A stretch of 64,000 nt of DNA from Escherichia phage PECP14, in sequence record OQ870555.1; one strand, given 5' to 3'. Both the position numbers and the translations under genes were made by a program. How positions within the stretch are numbered: the stretch's first letter is position 1; each line of letters opens with the position of its first letter. Below are positions 7,774 through 61,064 of this stretch, one piece after another. The notes beneath the pieces were generated by a model, which was given only the letters and a program-made list of their open reading frames with translations, did no database searches and had not been told where the DNA came from.

Positions 7774-8645
7774 TGTCCTGCGATCTCCAAAATATCTTTC
7801 GTAAACTTATCTAATACGTCTTGACCCACAGCAGCAATAGCATCTACACAATAGGTCGGTAAATCAACCAGAATCAGATTTCGGAAAAGCAACTCCTCCG
7901 ATGCGTTCAGATTCTGTATATATTTCTGTTTCCCAGGCAGAGGGAGTTGATCAATAATATCCAGAACATTACCAAATTCACGGATAATATTATAACCACG
8001 TTTTGCACCGATGCCTTCAACACCACGGATGTTATCACCAAGATCTCCCATAATTGCTTTCAGAGAGATAAACTGATCTACATCGTCAACGTTATGATGT
8101 TCATACATATCACGAAGATGGTACTCACGACGTGTGGTGAAGGAGAAGCGAGAAACTCGATCAGTTAATAGAGTATCCCAGTCACCATCAGTAGAGATCA
8201 GCCAAACGTGATCATATAAATGACCAATGAGCTTAACAATATAAGCTGCCATATCGTCTGCTTCTACACCACGAATAGTGAAAGTTGGGAATGTGGTTTC
8301 ACACAACTCGAAAGCATCACGAAGATACTCGAAGAACTGTTCATCTAGTGCTTTCTCTTCTTCTGTACGTTGAGCATACTTTTCATCACGGTTGCCCTTA
8401 TAATCAGGAAGGTGCTCTAAACGGAATACAGACTTTCCTTTATCACCGAGAACGATTGTAGTTCTAGCTGAGTAGGATTTTGCGAGAGATTGAATTGTAG
8501 AAACATAACTTGAAGCGAAGGGTTTCTTACTATTATTATGTTTGAAGCGGAAGCCTAAGTTAGTTCCATCAACAATCATTAGGTTGCGACGAGAAGCCAG
8601 CTCAGCTTCTTCCTCTTCAATAAATTTTCCCCAGGATTTACTCAT
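7770..8645 (-). CDS. flap endonuclease / 5'-3' exonuclease (T5 D15-like)
   Basis: 291 aa; PIN-like N-terminus (MIVDGTNLGFR...), helix-3-turn-helix (...GDLGDNIRGVEGIGAKRG...). Confidence 0.8.
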   Translation of the reverse strand: MSKSWGKFIEEEEAELASRRNLMIVDGTNLGFRFKHNNSKKPFASSYVSTIQSLAKSYSARTTIVLGDKGKSVFRLEHLPDYKGNRDEKYAQRTEEEKALDEQFFEYLRDAFELCETTFPTFTIRGVEADDMAAYIVKLIGHLYDHVWLISTDGDWDTLLTDRVSRFSFTTRREYHLRDMYEHHNVDDVDQFISLKAIMGDLGDNIRGVEGIGAKRGYNIIREFGNVLDIIDQLPLPGKQKYIQNLNASEELLFRNLILVDLPTYCVDAIAAVGQDVLDKFTKDILEIAGQ

Positions 8646-30507: not shown

Positions 30508-30670
30508 ATTCTCCCTCCTTAATAAGGAACTCTTTCCATTCTGCTGTATCCTCATAGATAACGCAGAAATCATCACTCTTCCATGAGAAGTCATCAGTAG
30601 CAAATTCGAAACGGTAGCACCAACTACCGTCTGGCCATACTAAAAGATCACACATGCTTTTCTGGGACAT
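30488..30670 (-). CDS. hypothetical small acidic protein
   Basis: Start moved to ATG at 30670 with RBS GGAGGG inside the end of the Sir2-like gene. Confidence 0.4.
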   Translation of the reverse strand: MSQKSMCDLLVWPDGSWCYRFEFATDDFSWKSDDFCVIYEDTAEWKEFLIKEGEYGEEDF

Positions 30671-31499
30671 AAATATTTCCCTCCATAAAAGCTTCAACTT
30701 GATCAATAAAGTGTTTATTACCAAAAACTTCGGCAGCTCCAGCACGCCATACAGTAACACCACGTTTCTCATACTCAAGCTGTTCGTCATAACGAACTTG
30801 TGGGTTAACAACCATCATCTTAGTTCCACGACATACAGCAGGAAATAGCTCCCAGTTGAAGTCGATTACTTGGTTGCTACAACCTACTACAATAACCATA
30901 TCATTGCTAGTAAGTGTATCAAACAGGTTAATCTGACCCATATACCACGGAGCCGTCTCACCAAAGAATGTTACGTTTGGTTTTACCCATTCGTAATCCT
31001 CAGGGGCAATCGCAGTATACCCAACATCTTCGATGATTTGGTTGCGACCCTGACGATAGATCACCTCTTTCAAGTACCCGTGAGCGTGAATGATTTCATC
31101 ACGAGGGATACCAGCACGTTCCAGAAGGTCATCAACGTTAGTAGTGAAGTTCTTCACGCTATCCTCACCATAACGCTGGAACCATTCTGCAATTCGCAGA
31201 TGGGCAATGTTAGGCTCAACAGTCTGTAATTCCTGACGACGCATGTTGTAGAACTCATGAGTCTTGAGATACAGATCGTTACCATCTTTATCAATGCCAG
31301 GGAAACGAGCACTGAAGTAGTTAGGATCATCTTCACCACAGAAGCGACGGAAGCCAGCTTCAAAGTTAGGCAAGCTACATACTTCCTCTAGATCGTACTC
31401 ATCCCACAAGGATTTCCCACTAGCAGTATCAGTACGGAAAGCACGAACACCACTATCTACACTCAAACCTGCACCACTAACAACGATTAGTCTACGCAT
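30648..31499 (-). CDS. Sir2-family (sirtuin-like) NAD-binding protein
   Basis: 283 aa; N-terminus VVSGAGLSVDSGVRAFR matches the sirtuin GAG(I/L)S..SGI..FR motif; later TTNVDDL...HG resembles the NID/HG block; no Zn-Cys cluster seen. Confidence 0.7.
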   Translation of the reverse strand: MRRLIVVSGAGLSVDSGVRAFRTDTASGKSLWDEYDLEEVCSLPNFEAGFRRFCGEDDPNYFSARFPGIDKDGNDLYLKTHEFYNMRRQELQTVEPNIAHLRIAEWFQRYGEDSVKNFTTNVDDLLERAGIPRDEIIHAHGYLKEVIYRQGRNQIIEDVGYTAIAPEDYEWVKPNVTFFGETAPWYMGQINLFDTLTSNDMVIVVGCSNQVIDFNWELFPAVCRGTKMMVVNPQVRYDEQLEYEKRGVTVWRAGAAEVFGNKHFIDQVEAFMEGNIYVPEKHV

Positions 31500-31693
31500 T
31501 ATACGATTCCTTGCTTGAATCCTTCGATGATATTTTGGAGCAGAATTGCTTCTTCTGGGCGAACCTTCTCTTGCTTAATAAGCATATCCAAACCAGCAAT
31601 ACAGGTAGCTACTCCAGCATTATACCCAGCATTCCACTGCTCCATGAGCATATTTTCTAAATTACTTTTTAGATTCTGATTCAAGAAGTCCAT
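31499..31693 (-). CDS. hypothetical small protein
   Basis: Start moved to ATG at 31693 with RBS GGAGG; stop overlaps the Sir2-like start (TAATG). Confidence 0.4.
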   Translation of the reverse strand: MDFLNQNLKSNLENMLMEQWNAGYNAGVATCIAGLDMLIKQEKVRPEEAILLQNIIEGFKQGIV

Positions 31694-31865
31694 AAAGTTT
31701 TTCCTCCAATTCCATAATACGATTTTCGTAAGAAGCACGCAGCTTCTCGATGGACAAAGCACGAACTGTAACTTCATCTGAATTGATCGCTAGCTGAGCT
31801 AGATCTTCTGTTTCCATACGTCCGTTGTAAATTAAGCGATATTTAAGATGTTTTACGTTTTTCAT
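31662..31865 (-). CDS. hypothetical small protein
   Basis: 67 aa ORF with ATG start. Confidence 0.4.
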   Translation of the reverse strand: MKNVKHLKYRLIYNGRMETEDLAQLAINSDEVTVRALSIEKLRASYENRIMELEEKLYGLLESESKK

Positions 31866-31874
31866 TCTTGTTCC

Positions 31875-32156
31875 TTAGTTCTGTACTGTAAATTCATTCT
31901 TATCACAGTGAGCATAATAATACCCATACATACGATAAATTTTCACAGCCTTAGTAGACCCCTTCGATTCTTCATAATCAATCCAGAGCCACTTGTCTTT
32001 ACCTACATAATGTACCCGAAACTTCTTAACTTTCTTATCATTCCATGTTGCAACAACACGACGATAATCAAATCCGCCCAACCAATCTAGAGCCTTACGT
32101 TCTTCACTAGGCTCTCCAAGATGGGAAACATCTACTTTTGGAAGCAATTCGCTCAT
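31875..32156 (-). CDS. hypothetical protein
   Basis: 93 aa ORF just downstream of nrdD on the minus strand; no radical-SAM CxxxCxxC motif, so not an NrdG activase. Confidence 0.5.
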   Translation of the reverse strand: MSELLPKVDVSHLGEPSEERKALDWLGGFDYRRVVATWNDKKVKKFRVHYVGKDKWLWIDYEESKGSTKAVKIYRMYGYYYAHCDKNEFTVQN

Positions 32157-32254
32157 AGCTTTCTCCTCTCAAATTTATAAATCAATTATACATAAGTTTT
32201 AGCTCGAAAGCAAATAAAATAAAAGCCAGGTCGACTAGCAACCTGGCTGATTCA

Positions 32255-34129
32255 TTATTTAGCGCGAATGTCTTGATGTTTCACTCGACCCATAACCTCA
32301 TGTTGTTTACCTGGGTTAAACGGACGAGCACCTGGATTTCCAAGATATCCACAAACTCGACGAGTTACCTCAAGAGTCTCAGGATCATGATTGCCACAAA
32401 TTGGGCATTTGAAACCATCCTCAGAAGCTATAGTTTCACCCAAGAACCCACATTCCCCACAAGAGTCTACTGGAGTATTAATACCGAAGTAATGAACTTT
32501 ACTTGCAGCATAGTTAATAACCCATTCCAGTGCATCAGGGAATCGTTTCATATCCGGTAATTCCACATAGGAAATGCACCCACCAGAAGCAATAGGAGTA
32601 AAGTTAGACTCATAATCAAACTTCACATTTGGAGCAACCTTACGTTCTACATCAAGGTGATGGGAATTAGTGTAATATCCTTTAGCCAGAATATCTTCAT
32701 GCTCTGGGAAATACTCACGGTCTAGGCGACAGAAGCGATCACATAGAGATTCAGATGGTGTAGCATACAGACTATACCCTAATTGAGTCTCTTCCTTCTT
32801 CTGATCAGCACGATCACGCATGTATTGTAGCACACGTTGAACGAACTTGATACAAGACTCAGACATTGTATCTACATCTTTACCAAACATGAGCTGCAAC
32901 ATTTCGTGGCAACCAATATATCCTAGAGATACAGAAGCACGCTTGTAGAAATGATCAAATACATATTCATCTGGCCCCAGACGTAATCCAAAGGCTCCTG
33001 ACATATAGAGGATGGGCGCAGCTTTAGCTTGAATGTATTTTAAGCGATCAACCCTCCACTCCAATGCTTTTAACGCGGTATCCACACGCAGCTCAAGCAG
33101 ATCGAAGAATAGATCAATATTTCCTTCCGCTTCGATAGCGATTCGAGGAAGGTTTACGGAAACAACGCCTAAGTTGTTACGACCAGAAGTTTCACCATCT
33201 TCCGCAGCAGCCAGGAACGAACGACAGCCCATAGAGACTTTGTAGTCCCCCGTAACTTCTACAACCTTATCATAACTGATGTAGTCAGGATACATACGTT
33301 CAGCAGTACATTTCATAGCTAACTTCTTGATATCATAGTTAACATCACCAGGTTTCATGTTTACGCCCTCACGCAAAACAAATACCAGTTTAGGGAAGAT
33401 AGCTGTACGTTTATTGATACCCAAACCATCCATACGTACTTCTAGTATTGCTTTCTGTACAAGACGTGCTTCCCAAGAAGTTCCTAGACCAAAACCAAAG
33501 GTAATAAACGGACTTTGACCATTAGAGTTGAACATCGTATTGATTTCATACTCCAGGCCCTGACAGGCATCGTAAACTTCTTTCTCAGTCATTTCCGTAG
33601 CCATTACAGATGCTTTGGCTTCATCCTTAGTCCAACGCTTTGCAAACGCATGATTCTTATCATAAGACTTACGAACATAAGGAGCCAATACTTCATCTAA
33701 TCGGTCTACAGAAGTACCCCCATATTGATGTGAACTAACCTGAGTGATAATCTGAGCTGTGATAGCAGCCGCAGTAGTAATAGAGTTTGGTGTACTGATT
33801 TCAGCATTACCAACCTTCATACCATTCTTCAACATATCTTCCAAAGCAACCAGGCAACAGTTAGTCATACCTAATGCAGCGTAATCAGCATCATGGAAGT
33901 GAATATCACCAATCATGTGAGCATTTCGAATCTGGATTGGCATTTCTTCCAGAATCAGATATTTACTCAATTCCCCTGCAAGCATATCCCTTTGTGTAGG
34001 GAAACGTTCTGAGGGCTTATTGGCATTATTAAACAGCAGCTCTTCATCTGCTGAACCTTCGATAATTTCTTTGCAGTTTCGAATCAAGGACTGCATTCCT
34101 TTATACTTTAGTTCTTCATTGCGATTCAT
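32255..34129 (-). CDS. nrdD: anaerobic ribonucleoside-triphosphate reductase
   Basis: 624 aa; C-terminal glycyl-radical motif RVCGYLG and Zn-ribbon cysteines (CGECG...CPICG); RBS GAAGGAGGG. Confidence 0.9.
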   Translation of the reverse strand: MNRNEELKYKGMQSLIRNCKEIIEGSADEELLFNNANKPSERFPTQRDMLAGELSKYLILEEMPIQIRNAHMIGDIHFHDADYAALGMTNCCLVALEDMLKNGMKVGNAEISTPNSITTAAAITAQIITQVSSHQYGGTSVDRLDEVLAPYVRKSYDKNHAFAKRWTKDEAKASVMATEMTEKEVYDACQGLEYEINTMFNSNGQSPFITFGFGLGTSWEARLVQKAILEVRMDGLGINKRTAIFPKLVFVLREGVNMKPGDVNYDIKKLAMKCTAERMYPDYISYDKVVEVTGDYKVSMGCRSFLAAAEDGETSGRNNLGVVSVNLPRIAIEAEGNIDLFFDLLELRVDTALKALEWRVDRLKYIQAKAAPILYMSGAFGLRLGPDEYVFDHFYKRASVSLGYIGCHEMLQLMFGKDVDTMSESCIKFVQRVLQYMRDRADQKKEETQLGYSLYATPSESLCDRFCRLDREYFPEHEDILAKGYYTNSHHLDVERKVAPNVKFDYESNFTPIASGGCISYVELPDMKRFPDALEWVINYAASKVHYFGINTPVDSCGECGFLGETIASEDGFKCPICGNHDPETLEVTRRVCGYLGNPGARPFNPGKQHEVMGRVKHQDIRAK

Positions 34130-34481
34130 TATACCCTCCTTCTCTAACTAAGACTACTATTATAACTCATTCGAAGGCGGATGTCAACAATATTTTACTA
34201 TAAAGTTCTGTAACATGATCTGAGTCAAAAAATTTTATTTGCCAACCTCTACTAAAAATAGTATAATCACGCACCCGTGTACGCGATATAAAATGATTAT
34301 CTAGTACCATACATCTCCCAGTAAAAGCAAGTAAATTTTTTATTTAAATGCAATATCATAGGCTTATTTAAAATTGTAGTTGCCTTTTACTGTATATAAT
34401 GGTATAATATATTTGTAAGTTGATAAACAAGATCTTTTTGTTGATCCTCTGTTAGCGAAGTACACTATAGGAGTGTTATTT

Positions 34482-35234
34482 ATGGGAAAACCGCGTCAGA
34501 AAAGAGAGAACCGTAATGGTTCAAGAAAGCGTAGCAACAAGTACGAGAGTAACGTAATTCAGGCTGACTTTTCGAATGATTACGCCAATCCAGTTGCTAA
34601 ATCCCTAGTTGGTAAAAACCGTGAGCAAAAATCATATATCAATATGATCAAGAATAACACAGTGACTGTGGGTATTGGTGAACCAGGTACTGGTAAAACC
34701 TTCATCCCGTCAGTTCTTGCAGCTCAGGAACTCGTAGACATTCACTCAGATATTGAGCAAGTGATCCTCGTGCGTCCGAACGAACCTCTAGGTAAATCTC
34801 TTGGTATGCTCCCAGGTGATCTGGCAGAAAAGCTAGAGCCTTGGTTGGAACCAATAGCCGATGGCATGAAATGGGCAATCGGTGATCACGCCTACAAAGG
34901 ATATGTCGAACGCCAGAAAATTAAATTCCTGGCTATCGAACATGCCCGTGGCCGAACTTTCAACAACTCCTATGTAATTGTCGATGAAGCTCAGAATATC
35001 TCCGTTGAAGCAATGATCTGTCTCCTGACTCGTGTCGGACAGGATTGCCGTTTAATCATCTGTGGAGATATCGCTCAGAAAGACATTAAGGGTGACTCCG
35101 GTCTAGCACTTCTTATGGAAGTCTATGAGAAGTACGAGAACGCCCCTTTCTCAATGATCGAACTAATTGATAACGTTCGTTCTGTTGAGTCTAAAGCATT
35201 CTACGATATCTTTAAGGATATGGGGAAGGTATAA
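34482..35234 (+). CDS. phoH: PhoH-like ATPase
   Basis: Walker A GEPGTGKTF, Walker B VIVDEAQN; ATG at 34482 with RBS AGGAG. Confidence 0.85.
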   Translation: MGKPRQKRENRNGSRKRSNKYESNVIQADFSNDYANPVAKSLVGKNREQKSYINMIKNNTVTVGIGEPGTGKTFIPSVLAAQELVDIHSDIEQVILVRPNEPLGKSLGMLPGDLAEKLEPWLEPIADGMKWAIGDHAYKGYVERQKIKFLAIEHARGRTFNNSYVIVDEAQNISVEAMICLLTRVGQDCRLIICGDIAQKDIKGDSGLALLMEVYEKYENAPFSMIELIDNVRSVESKAFYDIFKDMGKV

Positions 35235-35235
35235 T

Positions 35236-35478
35236 ATGGGAAACGTCGTACATCTGCACCGCAAAACTAAGATCCACCGTACTTCACTGAGTGCTGCTAA
35301 TATGATTACACGCAAAGAAGGGGAAGAAAGTCCAAAGACTTCCCTAGCGTGGAAAATTGTAGCCTCTAACCCAAACCGGCCATTCAATTATAACGAACTT
35401 TCAACATCAGTAGATATTCTTCTGAGGGCGAATGCGAAAGCAAAAGTAATTAATCAAGCCGAAAAACTAGACTGGTAA
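35236..35478 (+). CDS. hypothetical small basic protein
   Basis: ATG at 35236 (MGNVVHLHRK) with RBS GGGGAAGG. Confidence 0.5.
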   Translation: MGNVVHLHRKTKIHRTSLSAANMITRKEGEESPKTSLAWKIVASNPNRPFNYNELSTSVDILLRANAKAKVINQAEKLDW

Positions 35479-35599
35479 TATAGAAGGCCTGGGTATGAAA
35501 ATACTCGGGCCTTTTCTATCAGAAAATTTTATTTGCCAAATGACTGAGAATAAAGTAAACTATTTCCTTAATCCTGATAATTACAAAAAGGAAAGCCAA

Positions 35600-37930
35600 A
35601 TGAGCCATCGCATCGAAAAAGTAATTAAACGTGACGGTACTGTTCAGGACTTTGCTCCTGAAAAACTCAATGATTGGGCCGCATGGGCATGTAAAGATAC
35701 TGACGTAAGTTGGTCTGCCGTAGTTATGGCTGCCCTGAAAAATCTACCCAAAGGTGTTGTAGACTCCGATACACTCCAAGATGTGTTAATTAAAGCCGCT
35801 GAAGGTCTTATCAAAGACAATCCAGCATATGATACTGTAGCAAAGGAATTACGTCTTGCGCAGATGCGTAAACGCCTATATGATTCCTTCGAACCACCTT
35901 CTCTGCGTTTCTTCCACGATCATATGGTTCGTGTTGGCGCTTGGGAAGACATGAGTGCATGGATTAGCGATGATCAGTTTGACGCTCTGAATCAAGTTAT
36001 TGACCATGATCGCGATCGTTTATTCACCAGTGGTGGACTGAAACAGTTCTTCGACAAGTATTCCCGTCGTAATATTGCAACTGGTGAAATTTATGAAACC
36101 CCGCAGTTTGCCTACATGGGTATGGCAATGGCGATGTTATCTCAACCTAACTGGACAATTCTAGATGCAATCGACCTCTACAATGCAATGTCGCTCCACA
36201 AAATCAACGTTCCTACGCCGCCACTGGTTGGCCTGCGCTCTAGTGACCGTGGATTTGCTAGTTGCTGCCTCGTGGATTCCACTGACACTCTGGATTCAAT
36301 CGACACAGCCGAGCACATCGTCTTCAAAATGGTCGCAGCCAGAGCGGGAATCGGGTATCATCTTGAAAGCCGATCAATTGCTGATCCGGTGCGAAATGGG
36401 GCATTCCCGCATTCCGGAAAACTGCCATATTATCGACACATTGACCGTTCAGTAAAAGCTAACACTCAGCAAACCCGTGGCGGTTCTGCTACTGTGTCTT
36501 ATCCATACTTCGATCCTGAAATCATTCAGTTGATGCAGGTTAAACAGCAACGTGCTACAGACGAGAATAAAATCGATAAAATGGATTACTCTCTGAGCTT
36601 TAACAACCTTCTGTTAAAACGTTACCTGAAAAACGAAGATATTACGCTAATGTCCTACTTCTACGCACCAGAAGTTCATGAAGCGTTTTATGGCGAAGAT
36701 GAGGCTAAGTTTGAAGAAATCTACATGGCAGCGGAGAAACGTGTGGCATCTCTTACAAAGATCGACCACGAAGGGAAAACAATTCCAGCAGCTCCTAGAA
36801 TCTCTGCAAAAGAAATCCTAGATACTTGGTTACGCATCCGTATGGAAACAGGGCGTATGTACGCTCATCATATTGGTGAATCTAACCGTCATGGTAACTT
36901 CCTTGACCCGATTCGTATGACCAACCTTTGTGTAGAGATTACTCAGCCTACTCGTCCATTCCAGCACATTACGGAACTGTACAAAACTGCGGATCAATTA
37001 GATGATATGCGTCCAGAAGATATTGGTGAAGTATCTCTGTGTAACTTAGGTGGTGTTGTACTTGGACGCATGGAATCTCTGGCTGAGTGGGAAAAAACTT
37101 GCTACATCCTACTGAAATTCGTTGATACAATTATTGAAATTCAGGATTATCCGTTCCCAACTATGGAATATACAGCTAAGAAACGTCGTAATGTTGGTAT
37201 TGGCCTGATGAACGCAGCAGGTGCAATGGCAGCAGAAGGTCTGGCTTATGAAGGTATTGAAGCCCGTAACTGGATTCACCGTGAGGCTGAAAAACTGTCT
37301 TACTTCCTGCATAAAGCCTCTGTACGCCTAGCTAAAGAACAGGGTGCATGTGAGTGGTTTGATCGTACTAAACCATCTAAAGGAATTCTGGTAATCGACA
37401 CGTACAAGAAAACTGTTGATGAACTGGTATCCGTAGGTCTAGAAATGGATTGGGAGTCTCTGCGTGCAGATATTCTGAAATATGGTATGCGTAATTCTGT
37501 TCTGACTGCTCAGATGCCAGGAGAAAGTTCTTCTGTTCTGCTAGGAGTTACTAACTCTATCGAACCGCCTCGTAAGATTGTATCTATCAAGGGTAGTGCA
37601 GTGAATAAAGTAATTGCAATTGCTCCAGGTGCAACCGATTGGGAAACGTTAATGAGCTATAAACTGGCTTATGATGTAGATCGTATCGAGTGGATCAAAT
37701 GGGTAGCAACTATGCAGAAATTCTTCAGTCAGTCTATCAGTACGAATATGTACTATGACTACACCAAGTTTGATAATGAAATCATTCCTGGCCCAGTAGT
37801 AGTTCGTGATTTCATGACTGCTGTTAAGTATGGGTGGAAAACTTTCTACTATGCAAACTTCAATACCGCAAATGGTGGAGGTGCTGGAGAAGAAGCAGCC
37901 GGTTGTGCATCCGGCGGTTGTACTATTTAA
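35600..37930 (+). CDS. nrdA: ribonucleoside-diphosphate reductase alpha subunit
   Basis: ATP-cone N-terminus (MSHRIEKVIKRDGTVQDF), catalytic region with NLCVEI; ATG at 35600 with RBS AAAGGAAAG. Confidence 0.9.
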   Translation: MSHRIEKVIKRDGTVQDFAPEKLNDWAAWACKDTDVSWSAVVMAALKNLPKGVVDSDTLQDVLIKAAEGLIKDNPAYDTVAKELRLAQMRKRLYDSFEPPSLRFFHDHMVRVGAWEDMSAWISDDQFDALNQVIDHDRDRLFTSGGLKQFFDKYSRRNIATGEIYETPQFAYMGMAMAMLSQPNWTILDAIDLYNAMSLHKINVPTPPLVGLRSSDRGFASCCLVDSTDTLDSIDTAEHIVFKMVAARAGIGYHLESRSIADPVRNGAFPHSGKLPYYRHIDRSVKANTQQTRGGSATVSYPYFDPEIIQLMQVKQQRATDENKIDKMDYSLSFNNLLLKRYLKNEDITLMSYFYAPEVHEAFYGEDEAKFEEIYMAAEKRVASLTKIDHEGKTIPAAPRISAKEILDTWLRIRMETGRMYAHHIGESNRHGNFLDPIRMTNLCVEITQPTRPFQHITELYKTADQLDDMRPEDIGEVSLCNLGGVVLGRMESLAEWEKTCYILLKFVDTIIEIQDYPFPTMEYTAKKRRNVGIGLMNAAGAMAAEGLAYEGIEARNWIHREAEKLSYFLHKASVRLAKEQGACEWFDRTKPSKGILVIDTYKKTVDELVSVGLEMDWESLRADILKYGMRNSVLTAQMPGESSSVLLGVTNSIEPPRKIVSIKGSAVNKVIAIAPGATDWETLMSYKLAYDVDRIEWIKWVATMQKFFSQSISTNMYYDYTKFDNEIIPGPVVVRDFMTAVKYGWKTFYYANFNTANGGGAGEEAAGCASGGCTI

Positions 37931-37938
37931 TAAAAACA

Positions 37939-37964
37939 AGGAGATCTTCGGGTCTCCTTTTTCT
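37939..37964 (+). terminator. rho-independent terminator after nrdA (UUCG tetraloop)
   Basis: AGGAGATC-TTCG-GGTCTCCT followed by TTTTTC. Confidence 0.7.
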
Positions 37965-37976
37965 TTGAAATTTTAC

Positions 37977-38005
37977 TTGCTAATCGCTACCAGATTTGCT
38001 ATAAT
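37977..38005 (+). promoter_or_regulatory. early promoter module ending 6 nt before the HNH endonuclease ATG
   Basis: TTGCTA-17 nt-TATAAT, then ATCTAT-ATG; implies a leaderless or very short-leader transcript. Confidence 0.6.
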
Positions 38006-38011
38006 ATCTAT

Positions 38012-38509
38012 ATGAAATTAACACAGAGTAGATTAAAAGAGCTAATCTCCTATGACCCTGAAACTGGCGAATTTACCTGGCTCCCAAGAAAAACTTTAGC
38101 AAAGCATTTATGGAACGCTAAAGCAGGAACCTATGATAAATTAGGGTATCTTCGTATAAAAGTTGAAGGAGTTCAATATTTAGCTCATCGCCTAGCCTTC
38201 TTGTATATGACTGGAGAAATACCAGAAGGAAAAATTGACCATAAAGATACTAATCCGTCTAATTGCGCCTGGGATAATCTCCGTGAAGCCACGAGTTCTC
38301 AAAATTCTATGAACTCGTGTGCAAGATCGGATAACCAGCTTGGAATGAAAAATATTCGTGTAAAAGGCACTTCATTTCAGGTTAGGATAGGCAAAGACGG
38401 CAAATCTTATACAAAAACTTTTAAAACCCTAGAAGAAGCTATAGAATGGAGAGACACCAAACTACTAGAACTTCATGGGGACTTTGCAAACAACGGAGAA
38501 GCTAAATGA
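38012..38509 (+). CDS. free-standing HNH homing endonuclease with AP2-type DNA-binding domain
   Basis: 165 aa; HNH core (...LAHRLAF...KIDHKDTNPSNCAWDNL...), AP2-like C-terminus (NIRVKGTSFQVRIGKDGKSYTKTFKTLEEAIEWRD); between nrdA and nrdB, 4-nt overlap with nrdB. Confidence 0.8.
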   Translation: MKLTQSRLKELISYDPETGEFTWLPRKTLAKHLWNAKAGTYDKLGYLRIKVEGVQYLAHRLAFLYMTGEIPEGKIDHKDTNPSNCAWDNLREATSSQNSMNSCARSDNQLGMKNIRVKGTSFQVRIGKDGKSYTKTFKTLEEAIEWRDTKLLELHGDFANNGEAK

Positions 38510-39651
38510 CTACTTTACTTAACTTAGAATGGGATCATACTAACGCTGATCTTTTCCTCGGTGATTCTTTGGGTATCGCAGATTATGTGCGTGTGGCACA
38601 CCCCGAACTAGAGCGATTAGCTCTGTTGCAGCGTTCCCAGTTCTGGACTGAAACTGAAATTAGTCTTGAAGCTGATAAAAAGCAGTGGGGTAATCTCCCA
38701 CGTGATATTCAGGAAATTACTCTCCTGAACTTAGCATGGCAGACCCAAACAGATTCTTTCATTAGCCGTGCTCCTGAAGCAGCTATTATGCCGCTTGTAA
38801 GCCGTCCTGAATTGGAGGGTATGCTCAAGCAGTGGAGCTACTTCGAAGATCTGCACAGCCGTGCGTATAGTAATATTATTCGTAACGTTCTGACTGATCC
38901 AGCAGAATTTATTGATTCTGTAACTAAAAACCAAGAAGCATTTGCACGTATCGCAGATTCTGTTGAACTGTTTGATGAATTGTATCTGTTAGGTCAGTAT
39001 TTCCTTGCAGTACGTGATCATCGTGGTGATAATACTTATCCAGAAACTGAGTTCCCTGAAGTTAAACGTGAAACTCAGGCTAAGCTGTTAGATGCTTACT
39101 TTGCAATCTACGGTCTGGAAGCAATGCAGTTCTACGCATCCTTTGCATGTACCTTTGCTCTAGCAGAGAACGATATTCTGCAAGGTATTGCTAAGAACCT
39201 GCAATTAATCGCTAAAGATGAAGCTCTACATACTCAAATGTCTAAAGCTATCATCCAGATTATGTTCCAGCAGTTTGATAAAGATCTGGTAGACGAAGCA
39301 TTAGCTAAAGCACCAGCACAACTCCTAAAAACTCTGAAAACTGAGATTGAATGGGGTCACTTTATCTTTAAAGGCCGTAGTCTGATTGGTTTGAACGCAG
39401 AACTGCTTGAAGAATACCTTTACTTTGTAGGACGTAACGCATTTATGCACATTGGTGTAGAATGGCCAAGCCACTTACCTGTAATTACTAAGAATCCGAT
39501 TCCGTGGATCATGAACTGGTTGGATACTACTTCTCTACAACCTGCTCCGCAAGAGATTCAGATTGGTGCAGCCTACCGCGTAGGTCAAGTCACAGAAACC
39601 TCTGCTGATACTCTGAAAGATCTTGGCAACGAATTTGAGGGTATGTTCTAA
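38506..39651 (+). CDS. nrdB: ribonucleoside-diphosphate reductase beta subunit
   Basis: 381 aa; diiron/tyrosyl-radical ferritin-like fold (..EDLHSRAYS.., ..KDEALHT..). Confidence 0.9.
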   Translation: MTTLLNLEWDHTNADLFLGDSLGIADYVRVAHPELERLALLQRSQFWTETEISLEADKKQWGNLPRDIQEITLLNLAWQTQTDSFISRAPEAAIMPLVSRPELEGMLKQWSYFEDLHSRAYSNIIRNVLTDPAEFIDSVTKNQEAFARIADSVELFDELYLLGQYFLAVRDHRGDNTYPETEFPEVKRETQAKLLDAYFAIYGLEAMQFYASFACTFALAENDILQGIAKNLQLIAKDEALHTQMSKAIIQIMFQQFDKDLVDEALAKAPAQLLKTLKTEIEWGHFIFKGRSLIGLNAELLEEYLYFVGRNAFMHIGVEWPSHLPVITKNPIPWIMNWLDTTSLQPAPQEIQIGAAYRVGQVTETSADTLKDLGNEFEGMF

Positions 39652-47223: not shown

Positions 47224-48057
47224 AGATTCATAAATTAGAGAACAGCGAGCCGATTACGCTGAGTGAGTTTAGTGATTCCTAATAGGATAGCTATTCCACT
47301 GAATAGAGTCGGTGAGTTGGAGACTAGTAAGTACTCTGAGAGAGGCTACGAGCTAACGCTTATTGCTATTGATAGGGAACTGAAAATCTGCGGAAAACTC
47401 GGGAGCTGTCCCGAAATCTCGTAAACTCTTCTCTAGTTTATGTTAGTGGGGTGTCGAACTGACTTATGTGATAACACTGCCAGATGCTCACAGGCTGACA
47501 TTGAGCTTTACTGCTCCTTCTGGAAAGAATCGGATAACTCGGGCTTATACCGGATAAGCATTCGCTGCTGGAGTACATACTATGACGGTTCAGGAGGTAC
47601 GCCACCTGATCAGTATTAGGTTAGAATCGAAACAGCTAAACCACGAGGAAACCTGACGGCCTCAACCAAACTCGGAACTCGGGATCACTGCCTAGTGTGT
47701 ACCCCGTTTAACCTGAGACTAGGCATCCAGCTTCGCATCGAAAATCGGAGGTGCGATTCTAACAGACCGCGTAACTATGAGAGTGGGAAACGCTGACATG
47801 AGAGATGTCACTAATGGTGCCCAATAGTACAGGTAATTCGCGATAATTCCTGTTGAGCGGCAGCAGTAGGCTGGGAGTCATGACCTAAGCCTAACCGAGT
47901 TCTTCACATACGGAGAACATAACCACAAAGTCACCCTGACTTAAACTGGAAGATATTGTCTGACGGAAGGGCTGCAGAGCTTAATCTGAGGGGGCTGACC
48001 CTACCTACCGTCGGGTATCTTTAAGAGCTTTTATAAGAGTTCTTAAAAATACCTAAA
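47224..48057 (+). ncRNA. candidate large structured non-coding RNA (ORF-free, promoter-driven, ends at tRNA-Arg)
   Basis: No ORF of 60 aa or more in any frame between 47194 and 48158; visibly more G+C-rich than flanking DNA; recurring AACTCGG(G) motif and several short hairpins. Identity unknown. Confidence 0.4.
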
Positions 48058-55445: not shown

Positions 55446-55520
55446 GCACCTTTAGCTGAGATGGATTAGCGCTTGCCTGAAGAGCTTGAGAGGTTGGATC
55501 GTTACCAACGGGGTGCACCA
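55446..55520 (+). tRNA. tRNA-Phe-like (anticodon GAA) with atypical stems
   Basis: Acceptor GCACCTT/GGGGTGC, D-stem GCTG/TAGC, loop CTGAAGA, unusual T-loop ATCGTTA, CCA; anticodon stem has two mismatches. Confidence 0.45.
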
Positions 55521-56425: not shown

Positions 56426-56528
56426 TATTCTGTGTAGAGTTAAGTAAACCGGTAGCCAACCAGCTATCATTACTGATATCGAATTCAGTCACAGATACCA
56501 TTTTTCATTAACAACTGAGGAAATAGAT

Positions 56529-57007: not shown

Positions 57008-57084
57008 GCTTCCATAGCTCAACTGGTTAGAGCTACCGCCTCTTAAGCGGAGGGTTGAAGGTTCAAGTCCTTCTGGGAGTACCA
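57008..57084 (+). tRNA. tRNA-Lys (anticodon CUU)
   Basis: Acceptor GCTTCCA/TGGGAGT (two G-U), D-stem GCTC/GAGC, loop CTCTTAA, T-arm GAAGG-TTCAAGT-CCTTC, CCA. Confidence 0.7.
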
Positions 57085-57287
57085 AACAAATAGAGTAAAG
57101 GCTACAGTAGGTGCACCCTTACGGACTGCTACACCGGACTCTATTCATTAACAAACATTCTAGCGTGGTGGAGAGGGGACACCAGCTTGCCGAGGGTAGA
57201 AGCTCGTTCGATTCGAGTGAAAGAATGGTTCTCGTAAATCCGCACAAGTGATAGCAGGTTCAAGTCCTGCCTAGATTGACTTATTAT
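57085..57287 (+). other. tRNA-like remnants / unassigned structured segment
   Basis: Two T-arm-like hairpins (GCTCG-TTCGATT-CGAGT near 57202-57218; GCAGG-TTCAAGT-CCTGC at 57254-57270) and an acceptor-like pairing ATAGAGT/ACTCTAT (57090-57146), but no complete cloverleaf or CCA in my folds. Confidence 0.35.
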
Positions 57288-57361
57288 GCGTTCGTAGTTA
57301 AAAGGTATAATTTTTGGTTGCCAACCAGAAGTTGAGGGTTCGATTCCCTCCGACCGCACCA
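57288..57361 (+). tRNA. tRNA-Gly (anticodon GCC)
   Basis: Acceptor GCGTTCG/CGACCGC, loop TTGCCAA, T-arm GAGGG-TTCGATT-CCCTC, CCA. Confidence 0.7.
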
Positions 57362-57609
57362 AATTTAGGTTTCTGCTTCCTAGAGAACGAACTCCTAGAT
57401 AAACAAGGTGATGAGTTTCCGGCCGGTTCTAGTCGCTGAAAATCCTCCCGACCAGGTAGGTGTAAGTAAACGAAAGTTTACTTATTAAGTAAGTCCGACA
57501 CATCGGCGGGTGTGTTCTAGTACTTAAAGAAGGTCTAGCAAACTTTCTCGCTAGCATGAGTTGATAGCTCGGTGACTTACCTAATAAGTAAATTTATTAA
57601 AAAATGTAG

Positions 57610-57638
57610 TTGCTATTTAGCTTAATTCTCTGTATAAT
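57610..57638 (+). promoter_or_regulatory. early promoter module upstream of tRNA-Pro / tRNA-CAU
   Basis: TTGCTA-17 nt-TATAAT. Confidence 0.65.
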
Positions 57639-57670
57639 ATATTTTATAAAGTGAGTTAACAAAGAATATT

Positions 57671-59041: not shown

Positions 59042-59401
59042 ATTTATATAAATTGATGTGAAAATAGCTGCCTAGATATTAGGTGTATGACGTCTACACT
59101 AGCAGAGCTACCGAAAAAAGAGATCCTCAGGATAAACGCCGTAGCAAAATTAGTCTGATATCCATCAATTTAGTTCACTAAGGTATTAGCTCGACCTAGG
59201 ACTGGCTGCCAAAAAGCACGGTTGCAATTAGACCCATAATGGCGGGGGATACTTTGCAAGAAGTTCTAGATTAGTCCACTAGATTCAGCGGCAACTGAAT
59301 AGTGTATCGGGTTTGTGGAGAGCGGTTATCCTCTACTGGCTAATGTCTGAGGGTAATACGCACACCGAGCTAATAGCCTTAGTAAACTAGAAGGAATATC
59401 T

Positions 59402-60335: not shown

Positions 60336-60426
60336 GGAAGAGCAAATCGATTAGGTGACGAAAACCACTTGGAAAGTGGCTGACTGGTAAAACGGCTTGA
60401 GAGTTCGAATCTCTCTTCTTCCGCCA
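60336..60426 (+). tRNA. tRNA-Ser (anticodon GGA), class II
   Basis: Acceptor GGAAGAG/TTCTTCC, loop TTGGAAA, long variable arm, T-arm GAGAG-TTCGAAT-CTCTC, CCA; 5' end overlaps a sub-60-aa ORF. Confidence 0.6.
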
Positions 60427-60749: not shown

Positions 60750-61064
60750 TTCTTGAAGTATGCCGGAATCGGTAGACGGGGCTTCCTAAAGGGCGTAAGG
60801 GGAACATCCACTCCTCATAAGATACCCGAAAACGAGGCTGAGATAAATGGTCTATCTCGTGAAGGTTCAAGTCCTTCTGCTTCTTGATACATCAATGGCT
60901 CAAAGAGTAACGGTGCACCTTTCTAGAGAATTTCCTGGGCGAGAATCCAGGTGTAATCAACTAGTTGTTAGTGTGATGAGTTTCGGAGAGCCGCCACAAT
61001 TGAAGTCTTTAGAATGGGTATCGCCCTTTAGCCCCTCCGAAAGGGATAACTAGAGATTTCAATT
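60750..61064 (+). other. ORF-poor structured segment with an orphan T-arm-like hairpin and a 12-bp inverted repeat abutting tRNA-His
   Basis: GAAGG-TTCAAGT-CCTTC at 60861-60877 with no matching acceptor or CCA; arms GCCACAATTGAA (60993-61004) and TTCAATTGTGGC (61058-61069) separated by 53 nt; the 3' arm overlaps tRNA-His. Confidence 0.35.

What the first reader, a model, noticed from the sequence alone, without database searches (positions are those of the whole stretch)
57085..57287. T-arm-like hairpins without a complete tRNA between tRNA-Lys and tRNA-Gly
About 200 nt contain two canonical T-arm hairpins (GCTCG-TTCGATT-CGAGT; GCAGG-TTCAAGT-CCTGC) and an acceptor-like pairing (ATAGAGT ... 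ACTCTAT), but I could not assemble any into a cloverleaf with matching acceptor and CCA. They may be decayed tRNA genes, a permuted or split tRNA, or tRNA-like processing elements.
Basis: seen in the sequence. Interest (0 to 1): 0.55.

Follow-up and report, generated by a model that had tools for sequence, protein, structure and literature searches.

The report
T5-family tRNA-like RNA2 plus hairpin
The interval holds two separate conserved small-RNA genes of a T5-like phage: the long-annotated, function-unknown "RNA2", which is a tRNA-shaped RNA whose anticodon loop is replaced by a 60-base insert carrying a second T-arm, and an unannotated 57-base three-way-junction hairpin also found in the tRNA clusters of two other phage families.

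Summary
Both T-arm hairpins and the ATAGAGT/ACTCTAT pairing sit where stated, and neither ARAGORN nor Rfam calls a tRNA.

The three features belong to two modules.

(1) Window 57156-57281 is the ortholog (92% identity) of "rna2/RNA2, tRNA-like RNA with unknown functions", annotated in phage T5 and Salmonella phage 5.
- An alignment of 21-29 distinct homologs gives a full class-I cloverleaf, supported by compensatory changes.
- Its parts are a 7-bp acceptor stem (ATTCTAG/CTAGATT), a D arm, a 5-bp anticodon-stem equivalent (GCTTG/CAAGT), a short variable loop and T-arm 2.
- The anticodon loop is replaced by a roughly 56-61-nt insert that holds T-arm 1 and the invariant CTCGTAA-N-TCCGCA.
- Stems covary while loops are invariant, so it is not a decayed, permuted or split tRNA.
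- It has no anticodon loop, no conserved acceptor identity and no CCA in this window, so it is probably not a decoder.
- I read it as a tRNA-scaffolded RNA processed like its tRNA neighbours. Its partner is unknown.

(2) Window 57089-57145 is an independent three-way-junction element.
- It is absent from some sister phages.
- It is present in Ackermannviridae and in a Schitoviridae phage.
- It is not annotated in any record I examined.

RNA2 is already known. Its fold and the hairpin family are modest additions.

The parts
57156..57281 (+). RNA2 gene, the ortholog of phage T5 / phage 5 'rna2'. It is a tRNA-like RNA of 126 nt, running from C(-1) to the 3' tail GACT.
   Evidence: blastn gives 92% identity over 125 nt to the annotated phage-5 RNA2. 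T5 and phage 5 annotate it as misc_RNA rna2. CM R1 scores 138 bits, E about 1e-34, at exactly 57156-57281.
57157..57163 (+). Acceptor stem, 5' strand ATTCTAG. It pairs with 57271-57277 (CTAGATT), with a U2-U71 mismatch in this window. C57156 can pair with G57278.
   Evidence: A2 columns 2-8 with 122-128: 7 of 7 pairs change on both sides and 97% of cells are paired. Variants include TATGGGG/TCCCATA, TACGGGG/TCCCGTA and AGACAAT/ATTGTCT.
57166..57184 (+). D arm. Stem TGGT(G)/(C)ACCA; the loop contains GGGG. It is preceded by C8 G9 (57164-57165).
   Evidence: A2 columns 11-14 with 26-29: 3 of 4 pairs covary (UA/CG, GC/AU) and 98.8% of cells are paired. 6 of 11 D-loop positions are invariant.
57185..57189 (+). 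Anticodon-stem equivalent, 5' strand GCTTG. It pairs with 57245-57249 (CAAGT).
   Evidence: RNAalifold found it without any prior structure. For columns 30-34 with 96-100, 4 of 5 pairs change on both sides and 99% of cells are paired.
57190..57244 (+). Insert that replaces the anticodon loop (55 nt here). It forms an irregular extended arm made of GGGT 57194-57197 with ATCC 57238-57241, AGAA 57198-57201 with TTCT 57229-57232, T-arm 1, the AATGG segment, and the invariant CTCGTAA 57231-57237 and GCA 57242-57244.
   Evidence: RNAalifold on a register-corrected alignment. The pair at columns 42-88 switches CG to UA. Invariance is shown. The inner pairing is only partly resolved.
57202..57218 (+). 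T-arm 1 (GCTCG-TTCGATT-CGAGT). This T-loop hairpin caps the extended arm.
   Evidence: Read. There are two allelic forms, GCTCG/CGAGT and TACGG/CCGTA. They differ on both sides at 4 of 5 pairs and share the loop TTCRAYT.
57250..57253 (+). Variable loop GATA. With T57249 as position 44 it has the 5-nt class-I length.
   Evidence: Alignment A2/A4. GAT is invariant.
57254..57270 (+). T-arm 2 (GCAGG-TTCAAGT-CCTGC). This is the true T arm, directly abutting the 3' acceptor strand.
   Evidence: Columns 105-109 with 117-121: pair types GC/AU/GU and CG/UA/GC, 98% of cells paired.
57271..57281 (+). Acceptor 3' strand CTAGATT, discriminator G57278 and tail ACT. There is no CCA.
   Evidence: The homologs in Erwinia phage KEY, Klebsiella rec13 and SIY1lw end in ACCA, TCCA and GCCA.
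57089..57145 (+). Independent 57-nt three-way-junction element.
- Outer stem: 57089-57096 with 57138-57145.
- P2: 57098-57101 with 57117-57120, with a 15-nt loop that contains the palindrome GGTGCACC.
- P3: CGG 57122-57124 with CCG 57134-57136, with a loop that contains GCTACA.
   Evidence: RNAalifold and pair counts: 98.3% of cells paired against 24-51% when slid, and 5 pairs change on both sides. CM R2 scores 83 bits at 57084-57150, against at most 16.5 bits on the opposite strand in other loci. The element is absent from L023, L039 and phiR2-01, where a tRNA directly precedes RNA2.
57085..57090 (+). AACAAA spacer. It is repeated at 57150-57155 on the other side of the hairpin element.
   Evidence: Read. 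Taipeivirus copies are flanked by ATACAAA on both sides.

Best explanation
The interval contains two co-oriented small-RNA modules of the early tRNA cluster of a T5-like phage.

Module 1, RNA2 (57156-57281)
- Structure (shown): it folds as a class-I tRNA with a 7-bp acceptor stem, a D arm with GG, a 5-bp anticodon-stem equivalent, a short variable loop and a canonical T arm.
- Structure (shown): the 7-nt anticodon loop is replaced by a roughly 56-61-nt irregular arm. That arm is capped by a second T-loop hairpin and studded with invariant unpaired nucleotides (CUCGUAA-N-UCC-GCA, AAUGG).
- Biogenesis (inferred): it is transcribed with the neighbouring tRNAs. The acceptor/T-arm minihelix lets host RNase P and the 3'-trimming enzymes cut it out as a stable RNA.
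- Not a decoder (inferred from sequence): it has no anticodon loop, the acceptor sequence and discriminator differ freely between lineages, and most lineages, this window included, lack an encoded CCA.
- Role (inferred, partner unknown): the tRNA body serves as a processing and stability scaffold, and perhaps as a tRNA mimic. The conserved insert is the working surface that binds a protein or RNA partner. One speculative possibility is a host factor that recognises tRNA.

Module 2 (57089-57145)
- It is a separate, horizontally shared mini three-way-junction RNA that sits just 3' of a tRNA.
- Its function is unknown.
For: Identity
- Annotated rna2/RNA2 in T5 and phage 5.
- 92% identity to phage-5 RNA2.
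- One copy in every T5-like locus searched.

Fold
- RNAalifold recovers the acceptor stem, D arm, long-range stem and T2.
- 17-18 of 32-33 pairs change on both sides, 96.5% of cells are paired, and the slid controls give 29-43%.
- The single-sequence MFE folds of the My1, KEY and T5 homologs recover the acceptor, D arm and T arm 2; those of My1 and KEY also recover the long-range anticodon stem, while T5 pairs that 5' strand with a different partner.
- Ordinary tRNAs align globally to the RNA2 model, positions 1-125, at 15-32 bits by skipping the insert.

Selection
- Stems vary: acceptor 1/7 and 0/7 positions invariant, anticodon stem 0/5 and 1/5.
- Unpaired elements do not: CTCGTAA 7/7, GCA 3/3, T1 loop 6/7.

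Strand
- G-U pairs occur on the + strand, for example columns 30-100 (GU in 18 sequences) and 41-89 (GU in 21).

Not a decoder
- The discriminator is G, A or T, and the tail is GACT, GACA, ACCA, TCCA or GCCA.
- There is no G3:U70.

Modularity
- The downstream neighbour differs between phages: tRNA-Gly here, RNAIV in T5, an ORF in phage 5, tRNA-Pro in the Klebsiella phage, tRNA-Thr in KEY.

Hairpin element
Against: - No expression or end-mapping data were available here. The GenBank note calls RNA2 'tRNA-like' rather than 'stable RNA', so it may have been predicted rather than seen.
- Only about 7-8 independent lineages exist, all within Demerecviridae. The covariation counts therefore rest on few events, and the shuffle control does not correct for relatedness.
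- The two T-arm-1 forms may reflect one block replacement by recombination rather than stepwise compensation.
- The inner pairing of the insert is ambiguous. Both GGG 57194-57196 and GG 57227-57228 could pair with CC 57240-57241.
- The window's own MFE fold differs from the model and is no better than shuffles (z = 0.03). The model structure scores -18.8 kcal/mol (-26.3 constrained) against an MFE of -34.1.
- The acceptor stem in this window has a U-U mismatch.
- T5 variants with large deletions in the tRNA-gene region remain viable (PMC11464382). By T5 coordinates one of these deletions appears to span the RNA2 locus, so any function would be conditional.
- No partner has been identified. The scaffold or decoy role is inference.
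Confidence: 0.6

Rival explanations
1. Pure punctuation element. RNA2, and perhaps the hairpin, exists only as a tRNA-shaped cleavage signal for RNase P or RNase E. It would separate the neighbouring tRNAs and small ORFs in the polycistronic early transcript, and the excised RNA itself would have no function.
For: - It lies between tRNAs, small ORFs and other stable RNAs in every phage examined.
- The acceptor/T-arm minihelix is the best-conserved structural feature.
- There is no CCA and no anticodon.
- Large tRNA-region deletions that appear to span the RNA2 locus are tolerated in T5.
Against: - A cleavage signal needs only the acceptor/T minihelix.
- Here the D loop, a long-range stem with compensatory changes, a second T-loop and a 14-nt invariant unpaired motif inside the insert are all maintained across genera.
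- The flanking genes that would need this punctuation differ between phages.
Confidence: 0.15
2. Decaying relics. The interval would hold one or two dead tRNA genes, for example a tRNA-Arg followed by a truncated tRNA, drifting neutrally.
For: - ARAGORN calls the first 70 nt of the SIY1lw homolog a tRNA-Arg(ccg).
- A local stem GCT/GGT with a 7-nt loop containing NCG can be drawn.
- In T5-type sequences AGAATG after T-arm 1 can pair with CATTCT.
- The window has a U-U mismatch in its acceptor stem and lacks CCA.
Against: - The local stem shows only one-sided G-U changes, and no pair changes on both sides. The mutually exclusive long-range stem has 4 of 5 pairs changed on both sides.
- The alternative acceptor closure is not compensated. 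KEY and the Klebsiella phages changed the 5' strand and the distal 3' strand but kept GAATGG/AAATGG, so 4 of 5 pairs depart only by becoming unpaired.
- Unpaired motifs are invariant across Tequintavirus, Epseptimavirus, Myunavirus, the Klebsiella phages and an Erwinia phage. That is incompatible with neutral drift.
Confidence: 0.07
3. A functional decoding tRNA that carries an intron or an expanded anticodon arm. It would be spliced or used as it is, then aminoacylated.
For: - The insert sits exactly where tRNA introns sit, in the anticodon loop.
- Three lineages encode NCCA.
- CUCGUAA looks like an anticodon loop: C32, U33, anticodon CGU, A37, A38.
Against: - The insert is only about 56-61 nt. 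Rfam finds no group I intron or other intron family.
- Removing the insert leaves no 7-nt loop with U33.
- The stem that would close CUCGUAA is mismatched or absent in the Klebsiella, My1 and SIY1lw types.
- Acceptor sequence and discriminator, which are needed for identity when there is no anticodon, are not conserved.
- Positions 8 and 14 are C and U rather than U and A.
- From background knowledge, the enterobacterial hosts have no tRNA splicing endonuclease.
Confidence: 0.06
4. A small protein-coding gene. Some GenBank records place a 'hypothetical protein' here, and the window has ORFs at 57111-57251 (+) and 57141-57362 (-).
For: - The ORFs are listed.
- 'Hypothetical protein' features lie under the match in several records.
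Against: - Single-nucleotide and other non-triplet indels occur among homologs, at A2 columns 19, 38, 79-80 and 95.
- The + ORF starts inside the hairpin module, which sister phages lack.
- The - ORF runs through tRNA-Gly.
- The substitution pattern is base-pair compensatory, not codon-like.
Confidence: 0.01

Closest known systems
Phage T5 / Salmonella phage 5 'rna2' (RNA2, 'tRNA-like RNA with unknown functions'; GenBank AY692264, AY543070, AJ604531)
   Same: It is the same gene: 92% identity over 125 nt, the same ends, and the same place in the tRNA cluster downstream of tRNA-Asp.
   Different: - The window allele has a 5-bp D stem with a different D loop (GAGAGGGGA).
- It has CCGA instead of GCGA/GCTA in the internal loop, and a UA instead of a CG pair at GGGY/RUCC.
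- Its tail is GACT, and its acceptor stem has a U-U mismatch.
- It is flanked by tRNA-Lys(CTT) plus the hairpin upstream and tRNA-Gly(GCC) downstream. T5 lacks all three.
T5-family RNA1 and RNA3 (also annotated 'tRNA-like RNA with unknown functions')
   Same: - They lie in the same cluster and carry the same annotation class.
- RNA1 (window 60752-60896) also has an acceptor-like pairing, a D arm, one canonical T arm and extra internal sequence.
- RNA1 shares ATAAATGGTCT..CTCGT with Klebsiella-type RNA2.
   Different: - RNA1 has a class-II-like D loop and a variable-arm hairpin.
- It does not match the RNA2 model except at the T arm (10 bits).
- RNA3 is only 73 nt and ends in ACCA.
- Common descent was not tested.
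Phage T4 RNAC and RNAD (species 1 and 2 RNAs)
   Same: - They are small RNAs encoded at the end of a phage tRNA cluster, and their roles are still unknown (PMC3014915, PMC9697503).
- RNAC has a canonical T arm (CCGGG-TTCGAAT-CCCGG) a few bases from a 3' end ...ACA, like the T5-type RNA2 tail GACA.
   Different: - There is no detectable homology. The RNA2 model gives RNAC 13.9 bits, less than it gives ordinary T4 tRNAs.
- The architecture of RNAC and RNAD was not analysed here.
Canonical tRNA (Rfam RF00005)
   Same: All helices of the cloverleaf are present, in the normal order and with normal lengths. The GG D loop, the TTCRANY T loop and the 4-5-nt variable loop are also present.
   Different: - There is no anticodon loop; a 56-61-nt insert takes its place.
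- Positions 8 and 14 are C and U instead of U and A.
- There is no CCA.
- It is not detected by ARAGORN or by Rfam at gathering score.
tmRNA (tRNA-like domain with a large functional insertion between the halves of the tRNA)
   Same: It follows the same design principle. Acceptor and T arm give tRNA-type processing and recognition, and a non-tRNA domain replaces the anticodon region.
   Different: - ARAGORN, which also searches for tmRNA, finds none.
- There is no G3:U70, no tag reading frame and no pseudoknots.
- RNA2 has a true D stem, and it is only 125 nt long.
Engineered 'tRNA scaffold' chimeras, in which an RNA is inserted in the anticodon stem of a tRNA for stable expression in E. coli. 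This comparison is recalled from the literature and was not checked here.
   Same: The topology is the same: a foreign structured RNA replaces the anticodon loop, and the tRNA body ensures processing and stability.
   Different: RNA2 is natural, conserved and phage-encoded. The analogy is functional only.

Membership tests
T5-family RNA2 (rna2) | Sequence homology to the annotated T5 / phage 5 rna2 over its full length | tested here: met
   92% identity over 125 of 125 nt to phage-5 RNA2. The blastn hits fall on features annotated rna2. CM R1 scores 138 bits.
T5-family RNA2 (rna2) | Single copy, on the same strand as the tRNAs, inside the early tRNA cluster downstream of tRNA-Asp | tested here: met
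T5-family RNA2 (rna2) | Accumulates as a discrete RNA in infected cells | not testable with these tools
   No expression data were available. No paper on RNA2 was found in the searchable library.
Canonical tRNA | 7-bp acceptor stem, D arm, 5-bp anticodon stem and T arm in cloverleaf order | tested here: met
   Ordinary tRNAs align globally to the RNA2 model.
Canonical tRNA | 7-nt anticodon loop with U33 and an anticodon | tested here: not met
   The loop is replaced by a 55-nt insert here, 56-61 nt in the family.
Canonical tRNA | Detected by tRNA finders or by the Rfam gathering score; U8/A14; 3' CCA, which is encoded in this phage's own tRNAs | tested here: not met
   ARAGORN finds none. Rfam gives 12.5 bits against a gathering score of 29. 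Positions 8 and 14 are C and U, and the tail is GACT.
Permuted or split tRNA | 3' half encoded upstream of the 5' half, or the halves at separate loci with complementary leader sequences | tested here: not met
   The elements lie in the normal 5'-to-3' order in one contiguous locus.
tRNA with a group I intron | Intron of about 200 nt or more with the P1-P9 core in the anticodon loop; matches the Rfam Intron_gpI family | tested here: not met
   The insert is 55-61 nt, and Rfam finds no intron family at E<=10.
tmRNA | tRNA-like domain with G3:U70, a tag ORF and pseudoknots | tested here: not met
   ARAGORN's tmRNA search is negative. The acceptor pair 3:70 is U-A (U-G, C-G or A-U in homologs). 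The RNA is 125 nt with no ORF.
T4 RNAC/RNAD | Sequence and structure homology to T4 rnaC or rnaD | tested here: not met
   The RNA2 model gives 13.9 bits on rnaC and nothing on rnaD, below its scores for T4 tRNAs.
Any Rfam 15 family (for the 57089-57145 hairpin) | Covariance-model match | tested here: not met
   No match covers 57086-57150 at E<=10.

The most novel reading that the evidence does not exclude
RNA2, probably together with RNA1, would be a natural 'tRNA-scaffolded' effector RNA.
- The tRNA body would get it processed, stabilised and recognised as a tRNA.
- The invariant insert (a second T-loop elbow plus CUCGUAA-N-UCCGCA) would capture a specific host or phage factor. One example would be a tRNA-directed defence nuclease or another tRNA-binding enzyme, making RNA2 an RNA decoy in the same arms race in which T5 tRNA-Lys neutralises PARIS.
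- Independently, the 57-nt three-way-junction hairpin would be a new mobile small-RNA module exchanged between the tRNA clusters of Demerecviridae, Ackermannviridae and Schitoviridae.
Probability: 0.15. Interest if true: 0.7.

Novelty: already known. Interest (0 to 1): 0.35.

Why it matters
Phage tRNA clusters carry small RNAs whose roles have stayed unknown for decades. Examples are T4 RNAC and RNAD, and T5 RNA1-3, RNA I, RNA III, RNA IV, RNA 2H and RNA X.

T5 tRNAs have recently been shown to counter tRNA-cleaving defence systems, PARIS and retron Eco7, as described in PMC11464382 and PMC10644984. That makes the non-decoding, tRNA-shaped RNAs beside them obvious candidates for related functions.

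This analysis adds nothing to the existence of RNA2, which is already annotated. It adds three things:
- A covariation-supported architecture: a tRNA frame with an insert in place of the anticodon loop, a second T-loop, and invariant unpaired motifs. This says which nucleotides to mutate.
- Evidence that the element is under selection across several genera.
- Recognition that the upstream 'acceptor-like' stem belongs to a separate structured RNA, unannotated in the records examined, that is shared by three phage families.

Neither element matches a family in Rfam 15.

Tried and rejected
- **First model of RNA2.** I first read it as a tRNA-Arg-like cloverleaf (acceptor, D arm, local stem GCT/GGT with an 'anticodon' CCG, T-arm 1) followed by an appended T-arm 2. 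ARAGORN's tRNA-Arg(ccg) call in SIY1lw prompted this. I rejected it because the local stem has only one-sided changes, while the exclusive long-range stem covaries.
- **Acceptor closure by AGAATG after T-arm 1.** Inverted repeat I2 suggested it. It is not compensated in KEY or the Klebsiella phages.
- **Which tRNA the frame derives from.** No isoacceptor in the window stands out.
- **Wider homolog searches.** The IMG/VR patterns and the metagenome pattern returned only the same lineages. A 14-mer pattern gave mostly chance hits.
- **Hairpin in bacterial genomes.** There was no match in 5,426 E. coli genomes.
- **Antisense target.** The window contains no credible target for the invariant insert motif (one 2-mismatch hit, with 0.85 expected by chance).
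- **Single-sequence folding of the window interval.** It was uninformative (z = 0.51 and 0.03).
- **CM realignment.** It did not fix the 1-nt register offset of T-arm 1 between the two allelic types. I handled this with a regex-parsed manual alignment. The KEY row is slightly mis-parsed there and was left out.
- **Literature.** Four searches found nothing on RNA2 function, and the Glukhov 2018 deletion paper is not held.
- **T4 RNAC/RNAD.** They are not homologs by the RNA2 model.
Full report
**Context**

The window is from a T5-like phage (Demerecviridae). The 1-kb neighbourhood is 95.5% identical to Salmonella phages ende, S114 and SH9, which belong to Epseptimavirus. ARAGORN finds 28 tRNA genes between 48.0 and 62.7 kb, all on the + strand. 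tRNA-Lys(ctt) ends at 57084 and tRNA-Gly(gcc) starts at 57288.

**Checking the observation**

- GCTCG-TTCGATT-CGAGT at 57202-57218.
- GCAGG-TTCAAGT-CCTGC at 57254-57270.
- ATAGAGT 57090-57096 pairing with ACTCTAT 57138-57144. The repeat finder extends this to 8 bp.

No tRNA is called in the interval. ARAGORN finds none. Rfam finds none at E<=1 over 17 kb. When the 202 nt are scanned alone, Rfam gives only a 12.5-bit partial tRNA match, against a gathering score of 29.

**What it is: two modules**

blastn of the interval splits it in two.

The 3' part, query positions 68-203, is found in about 450 T5-like phage records. In T5 (AY692264) it lies under a misc_RNA called rna2. In Salmonella phage 5 (AJ604531) it lies under "RNA2, tRNA-like RNA with unknown functions".

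The phage-5 record annotates a whole set of such RNAs in the tRNA region:
- RNA1, RNA2 and RNA3 are called "tRNA-like".
- RNA I, III, IV, 2H and X are called "stable RNA with unknown functions".

The annotated 125-nt phage-5 RNA2 aligns to window 57156-57280 at 92% identity.

The 5' part, query positions 8-58, has a different distribution. It occurs in only a subset of T5-like phages, but also in about 250 Ackermannviridae genomes and in Schitoviridae phage FSL SP-058.

Sister phages with the same RNA2 allele type as the window (L023, L039) and phiR2-01 have a tRNA directly upstream of RNA2, with no hairpin. The ATAGAGT/ACTCTAT stem is therefore not part of RNA2.

**Structure of RNA2**

I collected distinct homologs from several sources:
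- GenBank: T5, phage 5, Shivani, My1, SIY1lw, phiR2-01, Klebsiella phages P2 and rec13, and Erwinia phage KEY.
- IMG/VR.
- Metagenomes.

They give about 7-8 lineages. I used 21 distinct sequences in alignment A2, 23 in A4, and 29 in the manual alignment.

RNAalifold, run without any prior, predicts the following:
- An 8-bp terminal stem.
- A D arm.
- T-arm 2.
- A long-range helix between GCTTG (57185-57189) and CAAGT (57245-57249).

Pair counts for this structure:

| Element | Pairs changed on both sides | Example variants |
|---|---|---|
| Acceptor stem | 7 of 7 | ATTCTAG/CTAGAAT, TATGGGG/TCCCATA, TACGGGG/TCCCGTA, AGACAAT/ATTGTCT |
| D stem | 3 of 4 | |
| Long-range helix | 4 of 5 | GCTTG/CAAGT, GCCTG/CAGGT, GCCAT/GTGGT, GTCTG/CAGAT |
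| T2 stem | 2 of 5 | |

Overall 96.5% of cells are paired, against 29-43% when the partners are slid. None of 500 shuffles reached the observed values. The shuffle control ignores relatedness, and the number of independent events is small, so I treat these as strong but not formal statistics.

The result is a complete class-I cloverleaf:
- 7-bp acceptor stem.
- Two linker nucleotides (C, then G or A).
- 4-bp D stem and a D loop with GGGG.
- 5-bp anticodon-stem equivalent.
- Variable loop GATR.
- T-arm 2 directly abutting the 3' acceptor strand.
- Discriminator.

Consistent with this, ordinary tRNAs from all the phages align end to end to the RNA2 covariance model, positions 1-125, at 15-32 bits simply by deleting the insert. 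Each T5-like genome searched has exactly one full match at 110-155 bits.

The difference from a tRNA is that the anticodon loop is replaced by an insert of 55 nt here and up to 61 nt elsewhere.

**The insert**

On a register-corrected alignment, RNAalifold extends the anticodon stem into an irregular arm:
- GGGY pairs with RUCC. The fourth pair switches C-G to U-A between the T5 type and the window type.
- A 2-4-bp helix follows (AGAA/UUCU or UGAG/CUCG).
- T-arm 1 then forms the cap.

T-arm 1 exists in two forms, GCTCG/CGAGT and TACGG/CCGTA. They share the loop TTCRAYT and differ on both sides at four of five pairs. This may be one block exchange rather than stepwise compensation. KEY combines a Klebsiella-like D arm and anticodon stem with the T5-type T-arm 1, which suggests that alleles recombine.

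The inner pairing is not fully resolved. The invariant GG of AAUGG (57227-57228) competes with GGG 57194-57196 for CC 57240-57241. It might instead dock on the T-arm 1 loop, as G18 and G19 do in a tRNA. That last idea is my speculation.

Across eight lineage representatives the helices are free to vary, while the unpaired elements are fixed:

| Element | Invariant positions |
|---|---|
| Acceptor strands | 1/7 and 0/7 |
| Anticodon-stem strands | 0/5 and 1/5 |
| T1 stem strands | 1/5 each |
| CTCGTAA | 7/7 |
| TCC | 3/4 |
| GCA | 3/3 |
| T1 loop | 6/7 |
| D loop | 6/11 |

This is the signature of a selected, structured RNA. G-U pairs place it on the + strand.

**Alternatives tested for RNA2**

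- *Local 'anticodon' stem.* This is the fold that lets ARAGORN call a tRNA-Arg in SIY1lw. It shows no pair changed on both sides, and it excludes the covarying long-range stem.
- *Closure of the 5' strand by AGAATG after T-arm 1.* This is not compensated. KEY and the Klebsiella phages changed both true acceptor strands but kept GAATGG/AAATGG.
- *Intron.* The insert is too small, and no intron family matches. Removing it leaves no U33-type loop.
- *Coding sequence.* Non-triplet indels occur among homologs, and the window's ORFs depend on modules that are absent elsewhere.

Thermodynamics alone is weak evidence. The window sequence does not fold better than shuffles, and its MFE differs from the model. 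The MFE folds of the My1, KEY and T5 homologs recover the acceptor stem, D arm and T arm 2. Those of My1 and KEY also recover the long-range stem, while the T5 fold pairs that 5' strand with a different partner.

**How it probably works**

What is shown is the fold, the selection on it and its modular position. The rest is inferred.

- *Processing.* RNA2 sits in the same transcription direction as the tRNAs. No promoter-like or terminator-like site on its strand separates it from them, and the next strong promoter is the P13a homolog at 57589-57654. An acceptor/T-arm minihelix is the known minimal substrate of RNase P and of the CCA-adding enzyme; this is established knowledge and was not tested here. 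I therefore expect RNA2 to be excised like a tRNA.
- *Not a decoder.* It has no anticodon loop. Positions 8 and 14 are C and U. The acceptor sequence and discriminator (G, A or T) are not conserved. CCA is encoded only in KEY, rec13 and SIY1lw, although this phage's genuine tRNAs do encode CCA.
- *Likely role.* The most economical reading is a tRNA frame that provides processing, stability and perhaps tRNA mimicry. It would present a conserved insert that contacts a partner still to be identified.
- *Dispensability.* T5 variants with large deletions in the tRNA-gene region are viable (PMC11464382). By T5 coordinates, the 30661-38625 deletion appears to span the RNA2 locus at about 32960-33086. 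The function would then be conditional.
- *Decoy idea.* The same literature shows that T5 tRNAs counteract PARIS and retron Eco7. That makes a decoy role conceivable, but it is unproven.

**The hairpin element (57089-57145)**

Twelve distinct copies give the following structure:
- An 8-9-bp outer stem.
- A 4-bp helix P2 with a 15-nt loop.
- A 3-bp helix P3 (CGG/CCG) with a 9-10-nt loop.
- One-nucleotide linkers between the helices.

98.3% of cells are paired, against 24-51% when slid. Five pairs change on both sides. These include two P2 pairs that switch between A-U, G-C and U-A.

Its covariance model finds one copy per locus, always on the tRNA strand (77-91 bits, against at most 16.5 bits on the opposite strand). 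Where the locus annotation shows its neighbours, it lies among tRNA genes. The copies are in Kuttervirus, Taipeivirus, Limestonevirus, Ithacavirus SP-058, My1 and DU_PP_V, and part of Epseptimavirus.

It matches no Rfam family and nothing in 5,426 E. coli genomes. The bacterial hits to a loose pattern were groEL coding sequence.

The loops are nearly invariant. GUAG in the P2 loop could kiss CUAC in the P3 loop. A loop palindrome, GGUGCACC, is kept as GUGCGCAC in Taipeivirus.

With an outer stem that could stack on P3 and a D-arm-like P2, the element resembles the top half of a tRNA without an anticodon arm. This is only a resemblance. Its function is unknown.

**Comparison with known families, and novelty**

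RNA2 is a member of the annotated T5-family rna2, so it is already known. It fails the tests for membership of canonical tRNA, permuted or split tRNA, intron-containing tRNA, tmRNA and T4 RNAC/RNAD; the membership table gives the details.

The closest functional analogies are tmRNA and engineered tRNA-scaffold chimeras, in which a functional domain is inserted into a tRNA frame. T4 RNAC and RNAD are also comparable. They are small RNAs of a phage tRNA cluster with still unknown roles. RNAC carries a canonical T arm near a ...ACA 3' end.

I found no published structure or function for RNA2 in the searchable library. The older T5 literature is not held there, so I cannot exclude that the cloverleaf-plus-insert fold was described before.

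**Verdict**

The finding is real, but its core is a known and annotated element. What this analysis adds is the covariation-supported fold, the evidence of selection, and the recognition of a second structured RNA that is unannotated in the records examined and shared across phage families.

Noticed in passing
window 55446-55517: Rfam tRNA match of 33.4 bits that ARAGORN does not call. The equivalent place in Salmonella phage S114 is annotated tRNA-Phe-GAA.
   Followed up: partly
window 56428-56500: Homolog (96%) of phage-5 'RNA3, tRNA-like RNA with unknown functions'. It is 73 nt, lies directly after tRNA-Asn, and the phage-5 copy ends in ACCA. Neither ARAGORN nor Rfam calls it.
   Followed up: partly
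window 60752-60896: Homolog (88%) of 'RNA1, tRNA-like RNA' (145 nt). It has a class-II-like D loop (AATCGGTAGA), one canonical T arm (GAAGG-TTCAAGT-CCTTC), a hairpin GAGATA-AATGGTC-TATCTC and extra internal sequence. It shares ATAAATGGTCT..CTCGT with Klebsiella-type RNA2, so it may be a relative or carry a shared motif.
   Followed up: partly
window 57362-57670: The next 'empty' interval holds a homolog of the T5 stable RNA IV at about 57486-57588. Its hairpin has a compensated change (ATAGA..TCTAT in T5, ACACA..TGTGT here). It also holds the P13a promoter homolog at 57589-57654, with TTGCTA-17-TATAAT at 57610-57638. The stretch 57362-57485 is unassigned. The whole interval folds better than shuffles (z = -2.29).
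   Followed up: partly
window 59184-59315 and 47236-48057: Homologs of the T5-family stable RNAs 'RNA 2H' and 'RNA X' (785 nt in phage 5, upstream of tRNA-Arg(tct)). Both are of unknown function.
   Followed up: no
window 60336-60422: Weak tRNA-Sec/Ser-like Rfam match (23.6 bits) just upstream of tRNA-Ser(tga), at the place where phage 5 has a second tRNA-Ser. It may be a degenerate tRNA-Ser.
   Followed up: no
window 57085-57090 and 57150-57155; L046 and related loci: The hairpin element is flanked by the same hexamer, AACAAA, on both sides. Taipeivirus copies are flanked by ATACAAA on both sides. This could be a duplication made on insertion, or a recurring inter-module spacer or processing signal.
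   Followed up: no
window 57110-57117 (P2 loop of the hairpin): The self-complementary GGTGCACC is replaced by GTGCGCAC in Taipeivirus copies, so the palindrome is kept while the sequence changes. This hints at loop-loop dimerisation of the RNA or at a palindromic DNA site.
   Followed up: no
L005 703-772 (Salmonella phage SIY1lw): ARAGORN calls the first 70 nt of that phage's RNA2 homolog a tRNA-Arg(ccg). Automated annotation could carry such a call as a spurious extra tRNA.
   Followed up: yes
L224 about 8137-8200 (IMG/VR contig of 208,908 bp): A match to CTCGTAAGTCCGCAC, found by that 15-nt pattern, is followed by a T-arm-like GCCG-TTCGAAT-CGGC in an unrelated large viral contig. It is probably coincidence and was not examined.
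   Followed up: no
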